Assembly (NCBI GenBank): GCA_947627805.1
Contig: CANQXB010000003.1
Span: 1 to 41,398 of the forward strand
DNA from: an uncultured Bacilli bacterium
GTDB taxonomy: Bacteria; Bacillota_I; Bacilli_A; RF39; UBA660
Reading direction: 5' to 3'
Length of the DNA: 41,398 bases
Shown here piece by piece: positions 2,913 through 14,576 of the stretch. Position 1 is the first letter of the stretch. Each line of letters starts with the position of its first letter. The position numbers and the translations under genes are program-made. Below the pieces are notes generated by a model. That model searched no databases. It saw nothing but the letters and a program-made list of their open reading frames with translations, and was not told the origin of the DNA.

Positions 2913-3770
2913 ATGAAACAAGATAAAATGTATTTAATAAACAAATTATTTAATAATGAGACAATTAGAACCATATGGGATAAAGAACAAGAAAAGTATT
3001 ATGTAAGTATTATAGATTTAGTTGGTGTTTTATCTGAAAGTGAAAGGCCAAGAAAATATTGGAGTGATTTAAAAAGTAAATTAAAACAAGAGGGAAATGA
3101 AGTGTCCGAAAAAATCGGACAGTTGAAATTAAAATCAAAAGATGGCAAATATCGTCTAACTGATGTTTGTGATATTGAGGAAATGTTTAGAATAATTGAG
3201 TCGATTCCTAGCAAAAATGCTGAGCCAATAAAGGAATGGTTAGCTAAACTTGGTCGCGAAAGAATTGATGAAGTATTTAATCCATCACTTGCCGCTCAAA
3301 GAGCAATAGATTTATATAGAGTAAAAGGCTATGATGAAAAATGGATTTCTAAAAGAATTCAAAGTATTCAAGATAGAAAAGAACTTACGGATGTTTGGAA
3401 AGAAAATGGCATAAATGAAGATAAAGAATATGCTATTCTAACTAATGAAATATATAAAGAATGGTCTGGTATGACAGCAAAAGAATATAAAGAATTTAAG
3501 GGACTTAGAAAAGAATCTTTAAGAGATAATATGGACAGTCTAGAAGTATCTTTAGCCGATATAAGTGAAGAAGTAACTAAAAGATTGGCTATGAAAGAAC
3601 GTCCTCAAGGGTTACAAGAAAATATTAAAGTAGCCCGCAAGGGAGGAAAAGTTGCTAAAAATACAAGAAATGAAATTGAAAATTTACTTGGAGAACCAGT
3701 GGTTACTAGTCAAAATAAACTAAATTATCATTATGTTACAAAACCCAAAGAAATAGAAAATAAAGGTTAA
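2913..3770 (+). CDS. BRO-N / antirepressor-like DNA-binding protein with DinD-like C-terminus
   Basis: LFNNETIRTIWD...YYVSIIDLVGVL...PRKYWSDLK and RIIESIPSKNAEPIKEWLA are typical of BRO-family proteins. Start moved to ATG 2913 behind RBS GGGAGG. Confidence 0.75.
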   Translation: MKQDKMYLINKLFNNETIRTIWDKEQEKYYVSIIDLVGVLSESERPRKYWSDLKSKLKQEGNEVSEKIGQLKLKSKDGKYRLTDVCDIEEMFRIIESIPSKNAEPIKEWLAKLGRERIDEVFNPSLAAQRAIDLYRVKGYDEKWISKRIQSIQDRKELTDVWKENGINEDKEYAILTNEIYKEWSGMTAKEYKEFKGLRKESLRDNMDSLEVSLADISEEVTKRLAMKERPQGLQENIKVARKGGKVAKNTRNEIENLLGEPVVTSQNKLNYHYVTKPKEIENKG

Positions 3771-9953: not shown

Positions 9954-12221
9954 ATGAAAGTAAAAGAAAAAAATAAATATCTTCCTTATCTTATCAATTC
10001 TTTAATTGTAATTGTAATTTTTTGTTTAATTTTATTATTAAGTAAAACATCTCCTTTTGGTGATGCTTTAGCTTTAGGTAAATCCGATGCTATTTATCAA
10101 TATAAACCAATGCTTTATAATTTTATTATGAAACTTAAAACGGGTACTTTATATCAGTTTAGTTTTAATAATGGGTTAGGTAATTCTTTCTTTTTTAATT
10201 TTGCTTATTATTTATCTAGTCCCCTAAATTTGGTAGCTATCTTTTTTAATAATCCTGATTTTATGTTTTTAAGTGTCATTTTAATTAAAATGAGCGTTAC
10301 CAGTTTATTTTGTACTTTTTATGCTAAAAGTAAAAATTGTTCTAATTTTACATCTTTGATAGTGACTATTTCTTATGCTTTTTGTAGTTGGTTAGTTGTT
10401 TATTATTACAATATTATGTGGTTAGATACCTTCATGATGTTTCCTTTATTTCAATATGGTTTAGAGAAGTTAATTGCTCAAAATAAACCCACCATTTTTA
10501 TTTTATCTTTAGCTTATATTTATGCCACTAATTTCTTATTAGCTTTTGCTGTTTTAATATATGGTCTAGTCTATTTTATAATTAAAAATTTCTTTTATGA
10601 CAAAAAAGAAATAAAGAAGAAATTAAAAACTTTTTTAATATTTATAGGTTCCTTTATTTTTAGTATTTTGTTAATTGCCTTTTATTTTTGTATTTTAATT
10701 GATGTTAAAAAACAAATGGGATTAGGTTTTTCTGATGCTAATGGTAATATGTATCTTGTTAGTACCATCGATTTTATTAAAAGTTTATTTTATGGTAATA
10801 ATATTTTAATGTTGGATTTTGCCGGGAATACTTTTCCTAATATTGCTGTTAATACTTTTATCTTTTTAAATGTTATTTATTATTTTTTAAATAGTAAAAT
10901 TTCCTCGCGTGATAAAGCTTTTACTTTTATAGGTATTTGTCTTGTTATCGTTTGTATTTTTTCCGTAAAAGTAGATTATATTATGAATTTTTTCCATAAT
11001 GTCGTGGGTTTAACATATCGTTATTCTTATATTTTCTCTTTTTTAGCAATTATGCTTTTTATAGAGAATGCTCAAAATTATGATAAAAAAGATTTTAAAA
11101 AAATGCTTCCTATTATTATAGCTTTATTATTAATCGTTTTATTATTAGGAACTAAGATGAATAAATTAATAGTAATTTTTAATGGGGTATCTTTATTATT
11201 TTGTTTATTTATCTTATTTTGTCAAAATGAAAAAGTTCTTAAATTATCTTTATCTTTTTTCGTAATAATTCAATCTTTATTAGTGGGTTATTTAACTATT
11301 CCTAATAAAGAAGAGAATAGTTATGAGAAATTGCCCAATAATTTTGAATCTAAACCTTTAAAATATCGTTTAACTACCATTGGGGAAAATGATTATTTAA
11401 ATAAAAATTTATATACTAATCAAGATGTTACTTATTCTTTTACTTCCATGACTTATAATGATACTTTAACACTAGTTAATAAATTAGGTTATTATGCGGG
11501 AAAAAATGGAATGTCTGGTAATATTCATAATGAATTATTTAATTTACTATTTAATGTTCAAAGTTCTAATAATTATTATTTAGAAAAAATATATACTGTT
11601 AATAAAAATATATTAGATATTAAATTTAGTGATAATGTAAAAAATAATACCGAAGATTTAATAAAGAAAATGACTGATGTTGAAAAAATATATGATAAAG
11701 TTATTTTAAAACCTACGGAAGAAGATGATAATTTCTATTATTTTCAAGTTGATGAAGAATATGCTTTATTAGAAGAGAAAGATAATGTAGAAGTTATTTC
11801 TAAAGGAAAAATAAAATTAAATAAGAATGCTTCTCAAGATAATTTAGTTATCTATAAATTAAATCAAGATAAGCTTAAAAAAATATATGAAATTCTTTCA
11901 ACTAAGCAAATTGCCTATACTTATTATAGGGATGATTTAATTGAAGGAAAAATTCAAGTTTCCGAAGACCAACTAATCTTTACTTCTATACCATATGATA
12001 CTAATTGGCATATAACTATTGATGGAAAAGAAGTACAACCGGTTAAATTATTAAATGCTTTAATTGGCATAGAAGTTGAACCGGGTAATCATACTTTAAA
12101 AATGGAATATCGTTTTGATTTAACAAAACCTCTTATTATTTCAATAGTATCTTTAACAACTTTGCTCGGAATTAATTTCTATACTATTAATAAAAAGAAA
12201 AAGAAAAAAGCTAAAAACTGA
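9954..12221 (+). CDS. YfhO-family polytopic membrane protein (GT-C-like, cell-wall polymer glycosylation)
   Basis: SD..YQY, GLG..F....AYYLSSPLN, NIMWLD motifs, many TM helices, C-terminal TSIPYD.NW...IDGK...GNH motif. Stop codon TGA is supplied by the IS end. Confidence 0.8.
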   Translation: MKVKEKNKYLPYLINSLIVIVIFCLILLLSKTSPFGDALALGKSDAIYQYKPMLYNFIMKLKTGTLYQFSFNNGLGNSFFFNFAYYLSSPLNLVAIFFNNPDFMFLSVILIKMSVTSLFCTFYAKSKNCSNFTSLIVTISYAFCSWLVVYYYNIMWLDTFMMFPLFQYGLEKLIAQNKPTIFILSLAYIYATNFLLAFAVLIYGLVYFIIKNFFYDKKEIKKKLKTFLIFIGSFIFSILLIAFYFCILIDVKKQMGLGFSDANGNMYLVSTIDFIKSLFYGNNILMLDFAGNTFPNIAVNTFIFLNVIYYFLNSKISSRDKAFTFIGICLVIVCIFSVKVDYIMNFFHNVVGLTYRYSYIFSFLAIMLFIENAQNYDKKDFKKMLPIIIALLLIVLLLGTKMNKLIVIFNGVSLLFCLFILFCQNEKVLKLSLSFFVIIQSLLVGYLTIPNKEENSYEKLPNNFESKPLKYRLTTIGENDYLNKNLYTNQDVTYSFTSMTYNDTLTLVNKLGYYAGKNGMSGNIHNELFNLLFNVQSSNNYYLEKIYTVNKNILDIKFSDNVKNNTEDLIKKMTDVEKIYDKVILKPTEEDDNFYYFQVDEEYALLEEKDNVEVISKGKIKLNKNASQDNLVIYKLNQDKLKKIYEILSTKQIAYTYYRDDLIEGKIQVSEDQLIFTSIPYDTNWHITIDGKEVQPVKLLNALIGIEVEPGNHTLKMEYRFDLTKPLIISIVSLTTLLGINFYTINKKKKKKAKN
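12208..12218 (+). repeat. Target-site duplication, left copy (11 bp)
   Basis: AAGCTAAAAAC, identical to 13912-13922 and abutting the left IR. Confidence 0.9.
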
Positions 12222-12311
12222 TTGAATTAAAAGGAAAGTTCCCAAAATAGTAAAAAAAATAAAATAAATGATTAAAGTCCCGAAAATAAATAAAAAAATT
12301 AATAAAAAAAC

Positions 12312-12340
12312 TTGAAAAAAACAAATAATTTTGTTAATCT
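12312..12340 (+). promoter_or_regulatory. Inward-facing sigmaA-like promoter in the IS left end
   Basis: TTGAAA-17bp-TAATCT with extended TG; same TGtTAATCT -10 as the hup promoter in this window. Confidence 0.6.
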
Positions 12341-12344
12341 ATAC

Positions 12345-12492
12345 ATGTCCAAAAGAAAATGGACATACTAAAAAGTGTACGTAGTAAAGTCTTTTTACGA
12401 CTAACTTCCCGTACAATAAAAGAGAAAAGATTAATAATTGGCTTATTTGTCAACGAAGAAGCGGAAGAAATAATCTTCTGCTTTTTCGTTGA
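12345..12492 (+). ncRNA. Candidate IS-encoded three-hairpin RNA, convergent with the transposase
   Basis: Stems 12345-51/12360-66, 12376-81/12410-15 and 19-bp 12450-68/12474-92. Two G-U pairs in the last stem work only on the + strand. Confidence 0.55.
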
Positions 12493-12500
12493 AATAATAA

Positions 12501-13697
12501 TTAAAGAATACTTTCAATATTTAACGATACATCATCCGGTTTAATATATCTATAATTAAGTTTTTTAATTAAATCAGGGTAGTATTTTAAAGTTTCTTCG
12601 TAAGGTGTCTTACCTTTTAAAATATCTCTAGGAATATTGTTAATTGTTTCTTCTAATTTTTGAATTTGTTTTTCAGTTACATTGTCTAAATCATAACCTT
12701 TGGGAAACACTCTTCTTATATATTCATGGTTTCTTTCAATATTACTTTTTTGCCAAGATGAGTATGGTTTGCAATAAAAGACATTGCAAGTTTTATTTCC
12801 TGTATTGTAATCTATTTCAATACATAAAGGGTCATAAAACTCTATTCCATTGTCAGTTAAGATGATTCTAAATATTTTAGAAAATAATTTAATCCCTAAT
12901 TTTTCTTTTAATTTATTTATTTCTTTATTTACACAAGCAATATTTTTCTTATCAAGTAATCTAATAAACATAAATTTAGTATTTTTAATAAGAATAGTTA
13001 ATAATACTTTATGACCTTTTTTCCCTTCAACTGTATCCATTTCGCAAATATTCATTTTAGGATGTTTAGAAATAAAATCTAAATAATCTTCATAAGTTCT
13101 TCCTTTAAGAAGAGATATTTTTCTTTTGTAATCATTATCATATTTTTTCTTTCTACTTTTGTATTTAACCTTTTTAGGTAAATCTATGTTAGATAAAGAC
13201 AAAACATTTAAATCGACATATTTGTAAAAAGTAGGTTTAGACATATATAAAATATCGGAATGATTAATATAGACTTGATTAATACTTTGTTTTTTGTTCT
13301 TTATTAAAGGAACAATAGATTTTTCAATTTCTTCAGCAACTTCAGGAGATATATCAACACCCTCACGAGAAGAAGATAAAACCTCTTCATAATGTTCTTG
13401 AGCCACTTTAGCATTGTAATAAACTTTAGCATTTAAACAATATTTTTTATTGGGACAAGGATTACATACATAAGGAGGTTTTTTAAGAGTTTTGCATTTG
13501 GAAATAGTATTTTGGATAATATTTTGGTCAAAATGATTTTTATCATATTTAACATATCTATTTCTTTTAATTTCTTTAGAGATAGTAGTACGGTCAGAAG
13601 AAACAGCTTTACCAATATAAGAAAAAGATTTATTTAAACTAATTAAATATTCAATATTATTACGTTGTTCTTTGCATAAATGTGAATAATTTGTCAT
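12501..13697 (-). CDS. IS30-family DDE transposase
   Basis: N-terminal HTH (YSHL..EQR..IE...TTISKEIKRN), Cys motif PPYVCN.C, catalytic EMDTVEG / LTDNGIEF / IERNH..IRR. Start moved to ATG 13697 behind RBS AAAGGAG. Confidence 0.95.
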   Translation of the reverse strand: MTNYSHLCKEQRNNIEYLISLNKSFSYIGKAVSSDRTTISKEIKRNRYVKYDKNHFDQNIIQNTISKCKTLKKPPYVCNPCPNKKYCLNAKVYYNAKVAQEHYEEVLSSSREGVDISPEVAEEIEKSIVPLIKNKKQSINQVYINHSDILYMSKPTFYKYVDLNVLSLSNIDLPKKVKYKSRKKKYDNDYKRKISLLKGRTYEDYLDFISKHPKMNICEMDTVEGKKGHKVLLTILIKNTKFMFIRLLDKKNIACVNKEINKLKEKLGIKLFSKIFRIILTDNGIEFYDPLCIEIDYNTGNKTCNVFYCKPYSSWQKSNIERNHEYIRRVFPKGYDLDNVTEKQIQKLEETINNIPRDILKGKTPYEETLKYYPDLIKKLNYRYIKPDDVSLNIESIL

Positions 13698-13720
13698 CAA
13701 AATGACTCCTTTCTTTAATA

Positions 13721-13773
13721 ATGACAAATAAACCAATGAGGTATATAATATACTTATAAAGGAAAATAATCAA
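13721..13773. promoter_or_regulatory. Overlapping divergent promoters in the IS right end
   Basis: - strand TTGATT(13768-73)-17bp-TATTAT(13745-50) facing the transposase; + strand ATGACA(13721-26)-17bp-TATAAT(13744-49) facing outward. Confidence 0.6.
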
Positions 13774-13880
13774 TAATCCTCGCCGGATGGGCCTTACTTT
13801 CTTTTACGAAAAAGAAAGATAAGCAAAGAAACCGGGGAATGATTATTTAAGTGTTTTAATGACTTATTGCTCATCTTTAA
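13756..13880 (+). ncRNA. Candidate IS-encoded multi-stem, pseudoknotted RNA
   Basis: Stems 13764-72/13840-48, TCC..CCGG/CCGG.GGA, CTTTCTTTT/AAAAGAAAG, and a crossing pairing GATGGGC(13786-92)/GCTCATC(13869-75). Confidence 0.55.
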
Positions 13881-13911
13881 AAATTTGGGAACTTCTAATT
13901 TTATTTAATCA

Positions 13912-13922
13912 AAGCTAAAAAC
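13912..13922 (+). repeat. Target-site duplication, right copy (11 bp)
   Basis: AAGCTAAAAAC followed by TAG, the apparent original stop codon of the YfhO-family gene. Confidence 0.9.
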
Positions 13923-13925
13923 TAG

Positions 13926-13954
13926 TTGACTTTAAAACTATTTGTGATTAAAAT
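13926..13954 (+). promoter_or_regulatory. sigmaA promoter of the 71-aa ORF
   Basis: TTGACT-17bp-TAAAAT. Confidence 0.75.
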
Positions 13955-13981
13955 ACATACTCACGCAAAGGAAGTGATATT

Positions 13982-14197
13982 GTGATAACAAATGAAGAAG
14001 CTGTTGCCTTTTTAATGTTATTTGGTCGTAGTGAAGCTAAAGCTAGAAAAATACTTGCTAGTCCTTCAGGAGTTAATTATAAAAGTATAATAGCTGAATT
14101 TATAAATAATGTTAGAATAAAAAAGAGCGACCCAACTTTAGACGTTTTAGCTTATTTACAAAATAATCCTCAAGAAGTAAAAAGAAAACCATTTTAA
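13982..14197 (+). CDS. Small hypothetical protein (71 aa)
   Basis: GTG start, RBS AAGGAAG, own promoter, host-like codon usage; no recognised motif. Confidence 0.7.
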   Translation: MITNEEAVAFLMLFGRSEAKARKILASPSGVNYKSIIAEFINNVRIKKSDPTLDVLAYLQNNPQEVKRKPF

Positions 14198-14223
14198 ACA
14201 AAAGAAAACCATTTTAAACAAAA
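14180..14223 (+). repeat. Perfect 20-bp tandem duplication
   Basis: AAAGAAAACCATTTTAAACA x2 (14181-14200, 14201-14220), spanning the stop codon. Confidence 0.95.
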
Positions 14224-14228
14224 TTAGG

Positions 14229-14257
14229 TTGCATAAAAAAGAAAGATATGGTATATT
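14229..14257 (+). promoter_or_regulatory. sigmaA promoter of secE-nusG
   Basis: TTGCAT-17bp-TATATT with extended TG. Confidence 0.7.
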
Positions 14258-14309
14258 ATTAATGAACACGAAAGTGTTTTTTAATTGAAAAAAATTTTAG
14301 GAGGTTAAA

Positions 14310-14576
14310 ATGGCTAAAGAAGTTAAAGCAAAAAAAGATGCAAAGGAAAAAGATGTCAAAAAAGTTAAGAAAGTAGATAAGAAGAAAAAAGAAACTAAAG
14401 TTAAAAAAGAAGGCTTATTTAAAGGTATCAAAAAAGAAATGAAACTTGTAAAATGGCCTAGTGCAAAAGAAATAGTTAAATATACAATAGCTACCATTAT
14501 TTTCTGTGTAGTTTTAGTAGCATTCTTTGAAGTTTTAAATTTAATACTAGCATTTATAAAGGGGTTGTTTAATTAA
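14310..14576 (+). CDS. secE: Preprotein translocase subunit SecE
   Basis: EMKLVKWPS motif plus one TM helix, directly upstream of nusG. Confidence 0.93.
   Translation: MAKEVKAKKDAKEKDVKKVKKVDKKKKETKVKKEGLFKGIKKEMKLVKWPSAKEIVKYTIATIIFCVVLVAFFEVLNLILAFIKGLFN

What the first reader, a model, noticed from the sequence alone, without database searches (positions are those of the whole stretch)
13721..13925. Right-end IS RNA candidate: outward promoter, multi-stem fold with pseudoknot, no terminator before the IR
Seen: ATGACA-17-TATAAT points outward and its -10 overlaps the transposase -10, so the two promoters could exclude each other. The transcript can fold into a 9-bp outer stem, a CCGG stem, a CTTTCTTTT/AAAAGAAAG hairpin followed by a second AAAGAAA (alternative pairing or triplex potential), and a crossing 7-bp pairing GAUGGGC/GCUCAUC whose G-U pair favours the + strand. 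No U-tract terminator precedes the IR. Inference: the RNA may run through the element end into flanking DNA, the arrangement by which TnpB reRNAs obtain guides, or simply drive neighbouring genes.
Basis: partly seen in the sequence, partly recalled or inferred. Interest (0 to 1): 0.75.

Follow-up and report, generated by a model that had tools for sequence, protein, structure and literature searches.

The report
Portable triplex-type hairpin cassette in IS30
The stretch is the untranslated, transposase-proximal end of an IS30-type jumping gene, and it carries an optional, widely shared hairpin cassette whose three strands vary together as a triple helix would require, so it is not a guide RNA.

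Summary
Window 12220-13910 is an IS30-family insertion sequence: 33-nt inverted ends, a 13-bp target duplication, transposase on the minus strand. The finding covers its transposase-proximal untranslated end.

The promoter-like hexamers and the long hairpin are real, and no terminator-like site lies before the inverted repeat.

Comparison supports a ~58-nt module instead:
- P1, a small covarying hairpin (13776-13788).
- P2, a long pyrimidine/purine hairpin (13793-13823).
- A purine tail (13824-13833) that mirrors the P2 3' arm. The A-run lengths match in 48 of 52 distinct hairpins.

This is the signature of an intrastrand triplex motif, a known but unexplained kind of bacterial repeat (BoxC/TMECO). 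Three things are new here. This family is A/T-rich. It sits in the untranslated ends of IS30, ISNCY, IS110 and IS481-like elements, always on the strand opposite the transposase. It is optional: a 91%-identical IS30 relative lacks it.

The TnpB-like guide reading fails, because there is no TnpB and the module points inward in other elements. My best guess (0.33) is a triple-helix RNA structure on the transposase-sense strand that protects transcript ends. A DNA-level triplex and a plus-strand small RNA remain live rivals. No RNA data were available.

The parts
12220..13910 (-). IS30-family insertion sequence (1691 bp). The transposase gene is on the - strand.
   Evidence: NCBIfam NF033563 (IS30 family transposase), E 8.3e-34, 117.5 bits against a cut-off of 80. 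Pfam HTH_38. Inverted ends and target duplication.
12207..12219 (.). Left copy of the 13-bp target-site duplication AAAGCTAAAAACT. The yfhO stop codon TGA (12219-12221) is made of its last base plus the first two IS bases.
   Evidence: Direct repeats D3/D16. Exact strings. ORF 9954..12221 matches YfhO.
13911..13923 (.). Right copy of the target-site duplication AAAGCTAAAAACT. It is followed by TAG, which is in frame with the duplicated codons.
12220..12250 (.). Terminal inverted repeat distal to the transposase start (GATTGAATTAAAAGGAAAGTTCCCAAAATAG). A second copy of its core lies at 12274-12290.
   Evidence: Inverted pair I2 and direct repeat D1..
13878..13910 (.). Terminal inverted repeat proximal to the transposase start. 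Its reverse complement reads GATTAAATAAAATTAGAAGTTCCCAAATTTTTA.
12501..13697 (-). Transposase coding sequence (398 aa plus stop).
13720..13739 (-). Conserved leader element. It reads AATGACAAATAAACCAATGA on the + strand and TCATTGGTTTATTTGTCATT on the - strand. The - strand ATTTGTCAT is complementary to the start-codon region ATGACAAAT (13697-13689), with the GGAG ribosome-binding site in the loop. It also matches, in inverted orientation, a segment at 12435-12452.
   Evidence: The same element, with up to one mismatch, is present in IS30 relatives without the module (L204, L207, L212/L214).
13745..13773 (-). Promoter-like site facing the transposase gene: TTGATT (13773-13768), 17 nt, TATTAT (13750-13745).
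   Evidence: 9 of 12 positions. An equivalent TTGATA-16-TAATAT sits at the same place in L040, read.
13721..13749 (+). Its -10 shares 5 bp with the transposase-side -10.
   Evidence: 11 of 12 positions. Not independently conserved: in L040 the corresponding hexamers and spacing are poorer. No transcript data.
13776..13788 (.). P1: small hairpin ATCC-tcgcc-GGAT, followed by GGGC (13789-13792).
   Evidence: A P1-like hairpin is found in 34 of 57 distinct module copies, against 360 of 2850 (12.6%) shuffled flanks. There are 22 different stem pairs.
13793..13823 (.). P2: long hairpin. The pyrimidine 5' arm is CTTAC-TTTCTTTT, the loop ACGA, and the purine 3' arm AAAAGAAA-G(A)TAAG. The lower 4-5 bp vary by compensating changes.
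   Evidence: Lower-stem pairs seen: GTACC/GGTAC, GCGAC/GTCGC, CCAC/GTGG, TTAC/GTAA, GTTAC/GTAAC, TTTCC/GGAAA and others.
13824..13833 (.). Mirror tail C-AAAGAAA-CC. It is a third strand candidate: class II purine motif on the + strand, and, as GGUUUCUUUG 5' of the hairpin, class IV pyrimidine motif on the - strand.
   Evidence: The A-run in the tail equals the A-run in the P2 3' arm in 48 of 52 distinct hairpins (2/2 x10, 3/3 x19, 4/4 x19). In non-hairpin hits to the same pattern the two are equal in 18 of 54. Class definitions are from PMC4666352, section 3.
12377..12456 (.). Second ultra-conserved untranslated block, downstream of the transposase stop codon. It holds an inverted-repeat-core-like CTTCCCG and the segment TTGGCTTATTTGTCA, which is complementary, on the transposase strand, to the leader element.
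   Evidence: 95-100% identical to the diverged second copy (L002), against 28-95% (mostly 50-85%) per 40-column window across the coding sequence. Partly kept in L040.

Best explanation
WHAT IT IS
The finding is the transposase-proximal untranslated end of an IS30-family element. It holds two things.
- The transposase promoter and leader, including a conserved segment that can pair with the start codon.
- An optional, portable ~58-nt cassette of P1, P2 and a mirror tail. Its core is an A/T-rich intrastrand triplex motif: a pyrimidine arm, a purine arm, and a second purine tract that mirrors the first.

HOW I THINK IT WORKS
The cassette acts in RNA of the transposase-sense (- strand) transcript. 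There it reads U-rich strand, 5-6-bp lower stem, U-rich arm, loop, A-rich arm. It can fold into a hairpin clamped by a major-groove U.A-U / C+.G-C triple helix (class IV), followed by the small P1 hairpin.

Such an unusually stable knot would act as an end-protecting or road-blocking structure for transposase transcripts.
- In the ISNCY, IS110 and some IS30 elements it lies 9-16 nt after the transposase stop codon, as a 3' untranslated region.
- In this IS30 arrangement it lies between the inverted repeat and the transposase promoter. It would then be transcribed only from outside the element or from a promoter formed when the two ends are joined.

It is not a guide RNA.

SHOWN
- The anatomy.
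- The three-strand covariation.
- The portability.
- The fixed orientation relative to the transposase gene.

INFERRED
- That a triple helix actually forms.
- That RNA rather than DNA is the active form.
- Which strand acts.
- The end-protection role.
For: CONSERVATION
- The block 13721-13840 is 98-100% identical to a second IS30 copy in the same genome. Across the coding sequence, 40-column windows run 28-95% (mostly 50-85%), and overall DNA identity is 73%.
- It is also more conserved than the coding sequence across genomes: window versus L046, 92% against 75%; window versus L040, 84% against 75%.

THREE-STRAND COVARIATION
- Tail and arm run lengths agree in 48 of 52 distinct hairpins, across three length classes. 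The 4 exceptions are single substitutions. In non-hairpin hits to the same pattern they agree in 18 of 54.
- A differently built second hairpin in L059 (arm G-AAA-G-AAAA-G, tail C-AAAA-G-AAA-G) is mirrored over both halves.
- Ordinary alternative Watson-Crick pairing of the tail with the 5' arm does not predict this pattern (my reasoning).

RNA CHEMISTRY AND GEOMETRY
- PMC4666352 (section 3) states that pyrimidine-type intrastrand triplexes form in RNA and purine-motif ones do not. That points to the - strand if RNA is the active form.
- The link between third strand and lower stem is 0-1 nt and the lower stem is 4-6 bp. This fits the known rule, recalled, that 1-2 nt can cross the deep groove over 6-7 bp as in pseudoknot loop 1. 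That works for a 5'-flanking strand (- strand) and not for a 3'-flanking one.
- Two populous lineages (L044-type and the GTTCA... class) carry an A.C mismatch on the + strand. It is a G.U pair on the - strand and alternates with A-U.

ORIENTATION AND POSITION
- The neighbouring genes match IS30 (L042, L092), ISNCY (L012, L054, L115), IS110 (L063, L085) and, below the curated cut-off, IS481 (L047). In all 8 of 8 the gene is on the strand opposite the module's + form.
- The transposase stop codon lies 9-16 nt from the tail in 8 of 11 measured elements: L063, L150, L115, L092, L012, L051, L151, L042. The other three are L085 at 45 nt, L054 at 60 nt and L047 at 78 nt. At 9-16 nt there is no room for a separate terminator, so those mRNAs must run into the module.

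PORTABILITY
- L204 has a transposase 91% identical over 184 aa to that of L002, with the same leader and inverted repeat. About 23 nt of unrelated A/T-rich DNA stands in place of the 62-nt module.
Against: - In this very element the module lies upstream of the predicted transposase promoter. The ordinary transposase mRNA would not contain it. The junction-promoter idea is recalled knowledge about IS30-type circles and dimers, and I did not test it here.
- G.U pairs that favour the + strand also occur: P1 of L053 and L060, P2 of L042 and L115, and the loop GUC with downstream GGC in several copies.
- Outside insertion sequences the module shows no fixed orientation to neighbouring genes. In L050 and in G000:C19 (L075) the + form lies between a + strand gene and an apparent intrinsic terminator, a hairpin plus U-run read by eye.
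- Terminator-like hairpins follow the + form in L132, L151 and L040, as a small-RNA gene would have.
- For the related BoxC/TMECO motif, the literature found neither promoter nor terminator activity and no orientation bias, and treats it as a DNA structure (PMC4666352, sections 3, 18, 20).
- The length classes may trace to few independent events, so the covariation counts copies rather than events.
- No RNA data could be obtained.
Confidence: 0.33

Rival explanations
1. DNA-level intrastrand triplex / hairpin repeat of the BoxC-TMECO kind. The cassette is a small dispersed, perhaps itself mobile, DNA element. It folds when the DNA is single-stranded or supercoiled: class II purine-motif triplex on the + strand, class IV on the - strand. 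It may stall polymerases or promote rearrangement. Insertion sequences merely carry it, or exploit it during replicative copy-out.
For: - It has the same block order (pyrimidine, loop, purine, loop, mirror purine) as the published motif. That motif forms a DNA triplex in vitro and is a dispersed intergenic repeat, sometimes in inverted tandem pairs (PMC4666352, sections 3, 12, 16, 18).
- Here, inverted pairs occur in the Nitrospirota loci L041 and L059.
- Multi-copy dispersed versions occur in Arcobacter-type genomes and in one group of environmental contigs.
- An identical 40-nt core sits in a Nitrospirota contig (L041) and a Clostridia contig (L050) with unrelated flanks.
- Near-identical IS30 copies differ by presence or absence of the module.
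- Outside insertion sequences there is no orientation bias.
- Using the lower-stem 3' strand as the second loop (5-7 nt) solves the steric problem for the + strand.
Against: - The lower stem and P1 covary as base-paired helices, with G.U-type pairs. A triplex that uses the lower stem as a loop does not need this.
- A pure DNA structure does not explain the fixed orientation relative to four transposase families, nor the 9-16-nt spacing from stop codons.
- TMECO itself was reported as not associated with mobile elements (PMC4666352, section 18).
- Arms of 7-9 triads are short for stable H-DNA (recalled).
Confidence: 0.27
2. Plus-strand small RNA or outward leader, the non-guide half of the reader's idea. 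ATGACA-17-TATAAT fires outward. The transcript starts near 13756, folds into P1 and P2 with an A-rich tail, and has no terminator in this copy. It either acts as a small regulatory RNA or reads out through the inverted repeat into the next gene.
For: - This is the best promoter-like match in the region (11 of 12 positions).
- The module begins about 20 nt after the predicted start.
- Terminator-like hairpins follow the + form in L132, L151 and L040, and U-runs follow tandem modules in L047, L054 and L057.
- The downstream host gene is co-oriented in 4 of 4 readable elements of this arrangement.
- The upstream host gene is co-oriented with the module in 11 of 14 elements with the module at the transposase 3' end.
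- Some G.U pairs favour the + strand.
- ISPpu9 shows that an insertion sequence can carry small RNA genes on both sides of its transposase gene (PMC8450116, abstract).
Against: - The -10 is confounded with the transposase -10, and the site is not kept in L040.
- Promoter-like sites are no more frequent here than in shuffles.
- The + strand fold is not unusual (z -1.16).
- The mirror covariation has no explanation in a + strand RNA, because the purine motif is reported not to form in RNA (PMC4666352, section 3).
- The predicted outward start lies upstream of the predicted transposase start, so the RNA would not be antisense to the transposase mRNA in this arrangement.
- The next gene has its own TTGACT-17-TAAAAT site at 13926-13954.
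- No RNA data.
Confidence: 0.22
3. TnpB/IscB-style guide RNA (reRNA, omega RNA). The RNA scaffold ends at the element boundary and its 3' end, read from flanking DNA, serves as a guide.
For: - Only the geometry in this one copy: an outward-facing structured region with no terminator-like site before the end.
Against: - There is no tnpB or iscB gene. The single gene is an IS30-family DDE transposase.
- The element has terminal inverted repeats and a 13-bp duplication, unlike IS200/IS605-type ends.
- No Rfam omega-RNA-type family matches.
- About 45 nt of non-conserved sequence plus the inverted repeat separate the module from the flank.
- In other elements the module points inward.
- L040 has a terminator-like hairpin before the inverted repeat.
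- The module is dispensable.
Confidence: 0.02
4. Nothing special. It is an ordinary A/T-rich hairpin, a leftover or weak terminator, and the mirror tail is a by-product of low-complexity sequence and shared ancestry.
For: - The host genome is A/T-rich.
- The core identity across phyla was imposed by my search patterns.
- The length classes could stem from few events.
- A generic mirror-versus-direct score was often tied: 32 ties, 18 mirror and 6 direct among 56 arm/tail combinations.
Against: - The search pattern did not link tail and arm lengths, yet they agree in 48 of 52 hairpins against 18 of 54 controls.
- The pattern also turns up in G+C-rich genomes, between housekeeping genes.
- The block is more conserved than the coding sequence.
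- There is no U-tract after the hairpin.
Confidence: 0.08

Closest known systems
Intrastrand triplex motifs of bacteria (PIT elements, BoxC, TMECO; Hoyne et al. 2000 as cited in, and Holder et al. 2015 = PMC4666352)
   Same: - The three consecutive blocks on one strand are the same: pyrimidine arm, loop, purine arm, loop, a second purine tract mirroring the first. This is class II on one strand and class IV on the other.
- Both are conserved, dispersed and mostly intergenic.
- Both sometimes occur as inverted tandem pairs.
- Neither has an established function.
   Different: - TMECO is G/C-rich (CCCTCNCCC... GGGNGAGGG N3 GGGNGAGGG) with a 3-nt second loop. This family is A/T-rich.
- Here a covarying 4-5-bp lower stem lies between the purine arm and the tail. 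In the gut Bacilli versions there is also an extra hairpin, P1.
- TMECO was reported as not associated with transposons, phages or plasmids and as having no strand bias. This family sits inside four insertion-sequence families in a fixed orientation.
ENE-type RNA triple helices behind transposase genes of plant and fungal transposons, and in viral and long non-coding RNAs (PMC13541005, passages only)
   Same: - A U.A-U major-groove triple helix placed just after a transposable element's gene.
- It is proposed to protect the transcript's end from exonucleases. This is what I think the module works like.
   Different: - An ENE is a U-rich internal loop that clamps a 3' poly(A) or A-rich tail. 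Here the purine strand is an arm of the hairpin itself and the third strand is a 5' flanking U-rich tract. No poly(A) is involved.
- This is a bacterial host.
- Membership is not claimed.
ISPpu9 (IS110 family) with small RNAs Asr9 and Ssr9 on either side of tnp, and a structured 5' untranslated region (PMC8450116, abstract and passages)
   Same: - Conserved untranslated blocks lie on both sides of the transposase gene, with mutual complementarity.
- The leader can hide the ribosome-binding site.
   Different: - It is a different insertion-sequence family and shares no sequence likeness.
- The small RNAs there were shown by Northern blot. Here no transcript is known.
- The triplex-type cassette has no counterpart there.
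RNA-OUT of IS10 and the antisense RNA of E. coli IS30 (recalled; cited in PMC8450116 discussion)
   Same: Transposase control from a promoter on the strand opposite to the transposase gene, within the element.
   Different: Those RNAs overlap the transposase mRNA. Here the predicted outward start lies upstream of the predicted transposase start, so no overlap is expected in this arrangement.
TnpB/IscB omega RNA (reRNA) of IS200/IS605-type elements
   Same: A structured RNA candidate near an element end that faces outward.
   Different: - There is no TnpB or IscB gene.
- The element is a DDE insertion sequence with inverted repeats and a target duplication.
- The module is variable in position and orientation, and it is optional.

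Membership tests
IS30 family insertion sequence | DDE transposase matching the IS30 family model, with an N-terminal helix-turn-helix | tested here: met
   NF033563, E 8.3e-34, 117.5 bits (cut-off 80), profile positions 11-266 of 267. Pfam HTH_38, E 8.4e-09.
IS30 family insertion sequence | Terminal inverted repeats and a flanking target-site duplication | tested here: met
   About 31-33-nt inverted ends, both starting GATT. A 13-bp direct repeat AAAGCTAAAAACT on both sides. By my recollection IS30 members usually make 2-3-bp duplications, so 13 bp is long. No empty site was found in 10 same-genus genomes.
TnpB/IscB guide RNA (omega RNA, reRNA) | A tnpB or iscB nuclease gene whose 3' end overlaps the RNA scaffold | tested here: not met
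   The only long ORF in 12220-13910 is the IS30 transposase.
TnpB/IscB guide RNA (omega RNA, reRNA) | IS200/IS605/IS607-type ends (subterminal hairpins, no inverted repeats, no duplication), with the RNA's 3' end crossing the right end | tested here: not met
   Inverted repeats and a duplication are present. No Rfam match of that type at E up to 10. The 3' end of any RNA is not testable here.
Intrastrand triplex motif (PIT/TM; classes II and IV) | Three consecutive blocks on one strand: a pyrimidine block, its Watson-Crick purine partner, and a third block that mirrors the purine block. The published search used stems of 6-15 nt with at most one mismatch. | tested here: met
   Blocks are CTTTCTTTT / AAAAGAAAG / (C)AAAGAAA(C), giving 7 matched triads in register. 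Register agreement in 48 of 52 distinct hairpins. Criteria from PMC4666352, section 15.
Intrastrand triplex motif (PIT/TM; classes II and IV) | Loops of 1-6 nt between the blocks | tested here: inconclusive
   Loop 1 is 4 nt. The stretch between the second and third block is 5-7 nt but is itself paired with the 5' lower stem.
Intrastrand triplex motif (PIT/TM; classes II and IV) | Physical triplex formation (CD, NMR, melting, footprint) | not testable with these tools
   No experiment was possible. The fold tools model secondary structure only.
ENE-type RNA stability element | A U-rich internal loop in a stem that clamps a downstream A-rich or poly(A) 3' end | tested here: not met
   P2 has no internal U-rich loop. 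The purine strand is the hairpin's own arm.
Intrinsic (Rho-independent) terminator | A G+C-rich hairpin immediately followed by a U-tract | tested here: not met
   0 terminator-like sites in 12100-14100. P2 is followed by CAAAGAAACC on the + strand and preceded by the U-rich tract on the - strand.
Any described RNA family (Rfam 15) | A covariance-model match at or near the family's gathering score | tested here: not met
   Window 12000-14400 at E up to 10: 9 weak matches, all far below gathering score. 17 related loci at gathering score: only 2 tRNAs, both elsewhere.
Cis-antisense transposase control RNA (IS10 RNA-OUT type) | A transcript overlapping the transposase mRNA's 5' end on the other strand | tested here: inconclusive
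   From the hexamers, the predicted outward start (~13756) and transposase start (~13738) would not overlap (my reading). Real starts are unknown.

The most novel reading that the evidence does not exclude
A self-contained U.A-U / C+.G-C RNA triple-helix cassette is traded as a module among at least four unrelated bacterial insertion-sequence families and also occurs in dispersed repeats of several phyla. It caps the ends of transposase transcripts. That would make it a bacterial counterpart of the ENE elements of eukaryotic transposons, and would give the long-unexplained intrastrand triplex repeats of bacteria (BoxC/TMECO kind) a first function.
Probability: 0.22. Interest if true: 0.85.

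Novelty: new variant of a known kind. Interest (0 to 1): 0.62.

Why it matters
Intrastrand triplex repeats have been known in bacterial genomes since 2000 without a function, and were reported as unconnected to mobile DNA.

This is an A/T-rich family of the same architecture with several unusual properties:
- Its three strands change length together.
- It is more conserved than the transposase gene beside it.
- It is present or absent between near-identical elements.
- It has been taken up, always in the same orientation, by IS30, ISNCY, IS110 and IS481-like elements.

That makes the old question directly testable. Natural with/without pairs exist, such as L002 and L204. The length classes (2, 3 or 4 adenines) suggest compensatory triple-mutant experiments.

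If the RNA reading holds, this would be, as far as my searches show, the first bacterial triple helix outside riboswitches and introns, and a new layer of transposase control.

It also corrects the tempting 'guide RNA at an IS end' reading for DDE-type elements.

Tried and rejected
EXPRESSION
- The look-up of sequencing runs on window 12200-14300 listed 8 DNA runs and no RNA holder. Read laying was therefore not used, and nothing can be said on expression.

DATABASE SEARCHES THAT FOUND NOTHING
- Rfam at E up to 10 on the region, and at gathering score on 17 related loci: nothing relevant.
- blastn of the 83-nt module against the plasmid and phage collections: no match. The low-complexity filter may hide it.
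- The earlier-findings index, by sequence and by genome: nothing relevant.

EMPTY-SITE SEARCH
- I searched 10 same-genus genomes with the right flank. Only the distal 100 nt matched, so no empty site was found.

COVARIANCE MODEL R1
- The model found the module in few genomes: 12 of 151 in the family at E<=0.01 and 9 of 151 in the order at E<=0.001. Seven genomes, G000 included, had matches of 49 bits or more. 0 of 7 same-genus genomes matched.
- The weak hits L066-L070, L077 and L078 lie in coding-looking sequence, and I treated them as false.
- The model's alignment A2 misplaces P1 in copies with 5-nt loops, so I counted pairs with my own scripts instead of the count of structure pairs.

TESTS THAT WERE NOT DECISIVE
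- A generic mirror-versus-direct score was noisy: 18 mirror, 6 direct, 32 ties among 56 combinations. It included reverse-strand and unrelated hairpins.
- The terminator scan on both strands around 32 gut-type copies was not decisive.
- Counting wobble pairs to choose the strand gave mixed signals.

IDEAS CONSIDERED AND DROPPED
- Guanidine-II (mini-ykkC) riboswitch: the ACGR loop is not kept, since ATGA, TCGA, ATGG and ATA also occur.
- boxA/boxB antitermination signals.
- attC sites or IS200/IS605-type ends.
- A protein-binding palindrome, which is excluded by mirror rather than dyad symmetry.

FAILED CALLS
- Searches were corrected. Searches were not repeated.
Full report
WHAT THE REGION IS

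Window 12220-13910 is an insertion sequence.
- Its single long ORF (13697->12501, - strand, 398 aa) matches the IS30-family transposase model: NF033563, E 8.3e-34, 117.5 bits against a cut-off of 80. It has the HTH_38 N-terminus.
- Both ends start GATT and share a ...GAAGTTCCCAAA core as inverted repeats of about 31-33 nt.
- A 13-bp direct repeat AAAGCTAAAAACT flanks the element at 12207-12219 and 13911-13923.
- The element sits exactly on the stop codon of a yfhO-like gene (9954..12221). The present TGA is built from one duplicated base plus two IS bases. On the far side the duplicated codons run into TAG.

CHECKING THE OBSERVATION

The hexamers ATGACA-17-TATAAT exist. They are the best promoter-like match in 12100-14100 (11 of 12 positions). 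Such matches are no commoner there than in shuffles: 13 found against 14.7 +/- 3.4 expected. The -10 overlaps the - strand site TTGATT-17-TATTAT that faces the transposase gene. No terminator-like site was found (0). The 145-nt + strand fold is unremarkable (z -1.16), while the - strand scores z -3.06.

The '-35' ATGACA lies in a conserved leader element (13720-13739). On the transposase strand it reads ...ATTTGTCAT. That is complementary to the start-codon region ATGACAAAT, with the GGAG ribosome-binding site in the loop. This is the classic arrangement for hiding a transposase start (recalled from IS10/IS50).

TWO ULTRA-CONSERVED UNTRANSLATED BLOCKS

The same genome holds a second, diverged IS30 copy (G000:C13, locus L002), 73% identical in DNA overall. 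A sliding comparison shows two blocks that stand out from the rest of the element:
- 12377-12456 is 95-100% identical.
- 13721-13840 is 98-100% identical.
- Across the transposase coding sequence, 40-column windows run 28-95%, mostly 50-85%.

The right-hand block is also more conserved than the coding sequence across genomes: window versus L046, 92% against 75%; window versus L040, 84% against 75%.

I collected relatives in four ways.
- A BLAST of family genomes.
- A pattern scan of one genome per species, giving 25 loci.
- A covariance model, R1.

Comparison supports three parts:
- P1 (13776-13788), ATCC-tcgcc-GGAT.
- P2 (13793-13823).
- A purine tail, C-AAAGAAA-CC (13824-13833).

P1-like hairpins occur in 34 of 57 distinct module copies, against 360 of 2850 (12.6%) shuffled flanks. 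There are 22 different stem pairs, for example GCAC/GTGC, GACC/GGTC, GCCC/GGGC, GTCT/AGAC and TTGCC/GGCAA. P1 is confined to the gut-Bacilli type.

The lower 4-5 bp of P2 change by compensation: GTACC/GGTAC, GCGAC/GTCGC, CCAC/GTGG, GTTAC/GTAAC, TTTCC/GGAAA.

- The outer stem is invariant in close relatives and absent in L040.
- The CCGG stem clashes with P1 and is not compensated (CCAG on the 3' side, with CCGG kept on the 5' side).
- The pseudoknot partners change so as to break pairs: GATAGGC with TCCCATT in L002 and with TCCCATC in L046.

THE MIRROR TAIL

The tail is not a repeat of the P2 3' arm. It is its mirror image, and it keeps register.

I took 106 distinct sites matching TTTTAYGAAAAAGAA-N4-10-AAGAAAYC from all loci held. 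This pattern does not tie the two run lengths together. Of these, 52 have a hairpin of at least 11 pairs.
- In the 52 hairpins, the A-run between the two G of the arm equals the A-run before the G of the tail in 48 (2/2 ten times, 3/3 nineteen times, 4/4 nineteen times).
- The four exceptions are single substitutions (L115, L174, L083, L039).
- In the 54 non-hairpin sites, mostly gene starts ATGAAAAAG..., the runs are equal in 18.

A differently built neighbour hairpin in L059 (arm G-AAA-G-AAAA-G, tail C-AAAA-G-AAA-G) is mirrored over both halves. A cruder generic score gave 18 mirror, 6 direct and 32 ties among 56 combinations.

Alternative Watson-Crick pairing of the tail with the 5' arm would predict a direct repeat, so it does not explain this. 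A third strand of a triple helix does: antiparallel to the purine arm on the + strand, or parallel to it as a U-rich strand on the - strand.

A caveat applies. Copies are not events, and the three length classes may rest on few changes. Each class does occur on several lower-stem and P1 backgrounds.

THIS ARCHITECTURE IS A KNOWN KIND

My first literature search gave reviews of RNA triple helices. In the passages I read of PMC13541005, bacterial cases are riboswitches and a group II intron. ENE elements 'behind the transposase gene' are from plant and fungal transposons.

A second search found PMC4666352. I read its abstract, section 3 part 1, sections 15 and 16, and passages of sections 12 and 18-20. 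Bacteria carry conserved 'intrastrand triplex motifs', also called PIT elements, BoxC or TMECO. They have exactly this block order: pyrimidine, loop, purine, loop, mirror purine. By that paper's definitions, our + strand is class II (purine motif) and our - strand is class IV (pyrimidine motif). The paper states that pyrimidine-type intrastrand triplexes also form in RNA, while purine-motif ones do not.

TMECO is described as follows:
- It is G/C-rich.
- It forms a DNA triplex in vitro.
- It is intergenic with no strand bias.
- It sometimes occurs in inverted tandem pairs.
- It showed no promoter or terminator activity.
- It 'was not found associated with' transposons, phages or plasmids.

No Rfam family matches our module.

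WHAT IS DIFFERENT HERE

A modular cassette on insertion sequences:
- The gene next to the module matches IS30 (L042, L092), ISNCY (L012, L054, L115), IS110 (L063, L085) or, below the curated cut-off, IS481 (L047). In all 8 of 8 tested it is on the strand opposite the module's + form.
- In those elements the module lies at the transposase 3' end and points inward. The stop codon is 9-16 nt from the tail in 8 of 11 measured. The others are at 45, 60 and 78 nt.
- In the window type (window, L002, L038, L046, L040) it lies at the 5' end and points outward.
- In a circle or head-to-tail dimer of the element both positions amount to 'between stop and start' (my inference).

The cassette is optional:
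- L204 has a transposase 91% identical to that of L002 over 184 aa, with the same leader and inverted repeat. About 23 nt of unrelated A/T-rich DNA replaces the 62 nt from CCTCGCCGG to CCGGGGA.
- The leaders of L207 and L212/L214 also lack it.

Its distribution is sporadic:
- 12 of 151 family genomes at E<=0.01. Seven genomes, G000 included, had matches of 49 bits or more.
- 9 of 151 in the order sample.
- 0 of 7 same-genus genomes.

The core (P2 plus tail, without P1) also turns up outside insertion sequences, by record title:
- Arcobacter and Halarcobacter.
- Nitrospirota, as inverted pairs between thyX-like and panB-like genes (named from N-terminal sequence, recalled) and between two other co-directional genes.
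- Spirochaetes, Zetaproteobacteria and Clostridia.
- A multi-copy repeat in environmental contigs.

There it has no fixed orientation to neighbours. My patterns imposed the core's identity. But L041 and L050, from different phyla, share an identical 40-mer with unrelated flanks.

WHICH STRAND, AND RNA OR DNA

For the transposase-sense (- strand) RNA:
- The RNA chemistry just cited.
- The 0-1-nt link between the third strand and a 5-6-bp lower stem. This matches the recalled rule for pseudoknot loop 1 crossing the deep groove, and works only for a 5'-flanking strand.
- A.C mismatches on the + strand are G.U pairs on the - strand in two populous lineages, and alternate with A-U.
- The fixed orientation relative to the transposase gene.
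- The tight spacing after stop codons, which leaves no room for another terminator.

For the + strand:
- The good promoter-like site.
- Terminator-like hairpins after the tail in L132, L151 and L040, and U-runs after tandem modules.
- G.U pairs in P1 of L053 and L060 and in P2 of L042 and L115.
- + oriented copies between a gene and an apparent terminator, read by eye, in L050 and in this genome's contig C19.
- Co-orientation with flanking host genes: 4 of 4 downstream genes in the window type, and 11 of 14 upstream genes in the 3'-end types.

For DNA:
- The published precedent, the dispersed and inverted-pair copies, and the presence/absence polymorphism.

No RNA run holds the sequence, so expression is untested.

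VERDICT

There is no TnpB. The element is a DDE type with inverted repeats. The module's position and direction vary, and it is dispensable.

My ranking:
- 0.33: an RNA triple-helix 'knot' on the transposase-sense transcript that protects or blocks transcript ends.
- 0.27: a DNA-level intrastrand triplex repeat.
- 0.22: a + strand small RNA or outward leader.
- 0.08: an ordinary hairpin with a coincidental tail.
- 0.02: a guide RNA.

It is a new, A/T-rich, IS-borne variant of a known but unexplained kind. It comes with natural with/without pairs and built-in compensatory classes, which make that old puzzle testable.

SOURCES NOT SEEN
- The supplements of PMC4666352 (its motif tables) were not opened. 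They might list A/T-rich motifs like this one.
- Hoyne et al. 2000 and the RNA-triplex papers are cited only through PMC4666352.
- Knowledge of IS30 circles and junction promoters, of 5'-end stabilisers in Bacillota, and of pseudoknot loop geometry is recalled, not looked up.

Noticed in passing
window 12377-12456: A second untranslated block, downstream of the transposase stop codon. It is 95-100% identical to the diverged copy L002 and partly kept in L040. It contains an inverted-repeat-core-like CTTCCCG and a small AGTC...GACT hairpin.
   Followed up: partly
window 12436-12450 versus 13723-13737: The 3' untranslated TTGGCTTATTTGTCA and the leader TGACAAATAAACCAA are inverted copies. On the transposase strand the 5' leader could pair with the 3' untranslated region over about 15 bp. 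Differences in the window, L002 and L040 give G.U pairs on that strand (A.C on the other). The same leader segment can instead pair with the start codon. This could be a 5'-3' switch for transposase translation.
   Followed up: partly
window 12450-12492: A 19-bp imperfect hairpin lies right after the transposase stop codon, with no U-tract on either strand. L002 has a hairpin of different sequence at the same place (1585-1622), so the structure is kept by compensating changes.
   Followed up: no
window 12308-12345: A + strand promoter-like TTGAAA-17-TAATCT points inward, antisense to the transposase 3' end. A TTGAAA stands at the same place in L002. It was not listed by the scan.
   Followed up: no
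The insertion rebuilt the yfhO stop codon (TGA instead of the original TAG).
   Followed up: partly
window 14180-14219: A perfect tandem duplication of 20 bp (AAAAGAAAACCATTTTAAAC twice) spans the stop codon of the 71-aa ORF 13982..14197.
   Followed up: no
L075 (G000:C19) 1414-1560: The same genome holds a degenerate tandem pair of the module outside any insertion sequence. It lies between the end of a + strand ORF and an A/T-rich hairpin followed by a U-run, read by eye. Its second unit breaks the mirror rule by one A.
   Followed up: partly
L041 3001-3040 and L050 (reverse strand) around 3001-3040: An identical 40-nt core (GTACC...GGTACCCAAAGAAAACG) occurs in a Nitrospirota contig and a Clostridia contig with unrelated flanks. 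This hints at transfer of the mini-element itself.
   Followed up: no
L083, L084, L088, L100, L110, L141, L145, L155, L158 and others: One environmental lineage carries many copies of a repeat of at least 100 nt, built around a 4-adenine version of the module (GTTCATTTTCTTTT ACGA AAAAGAAAACGAAC CAAAAGAAATC). It has conserved G+C-rich flanks. Several copies come from the same sample.
   Followed up: no
L204 (G019:C5) about 900-1500: The module-less IS30 relative seems to have an interrupted transposase gene. The longest ORF found was 184 aa, 91% identical to the C-terminal part of the L002 protein.
   Followed up: no
L063, L085 (IS110-family elements): In IS110-family (RNA-guided) elements the module lies 10-45 nt past the transposase stop codon on the opposite strand. 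Its relation to the bridge RNA of these elements was not examined.
   Followed up: no
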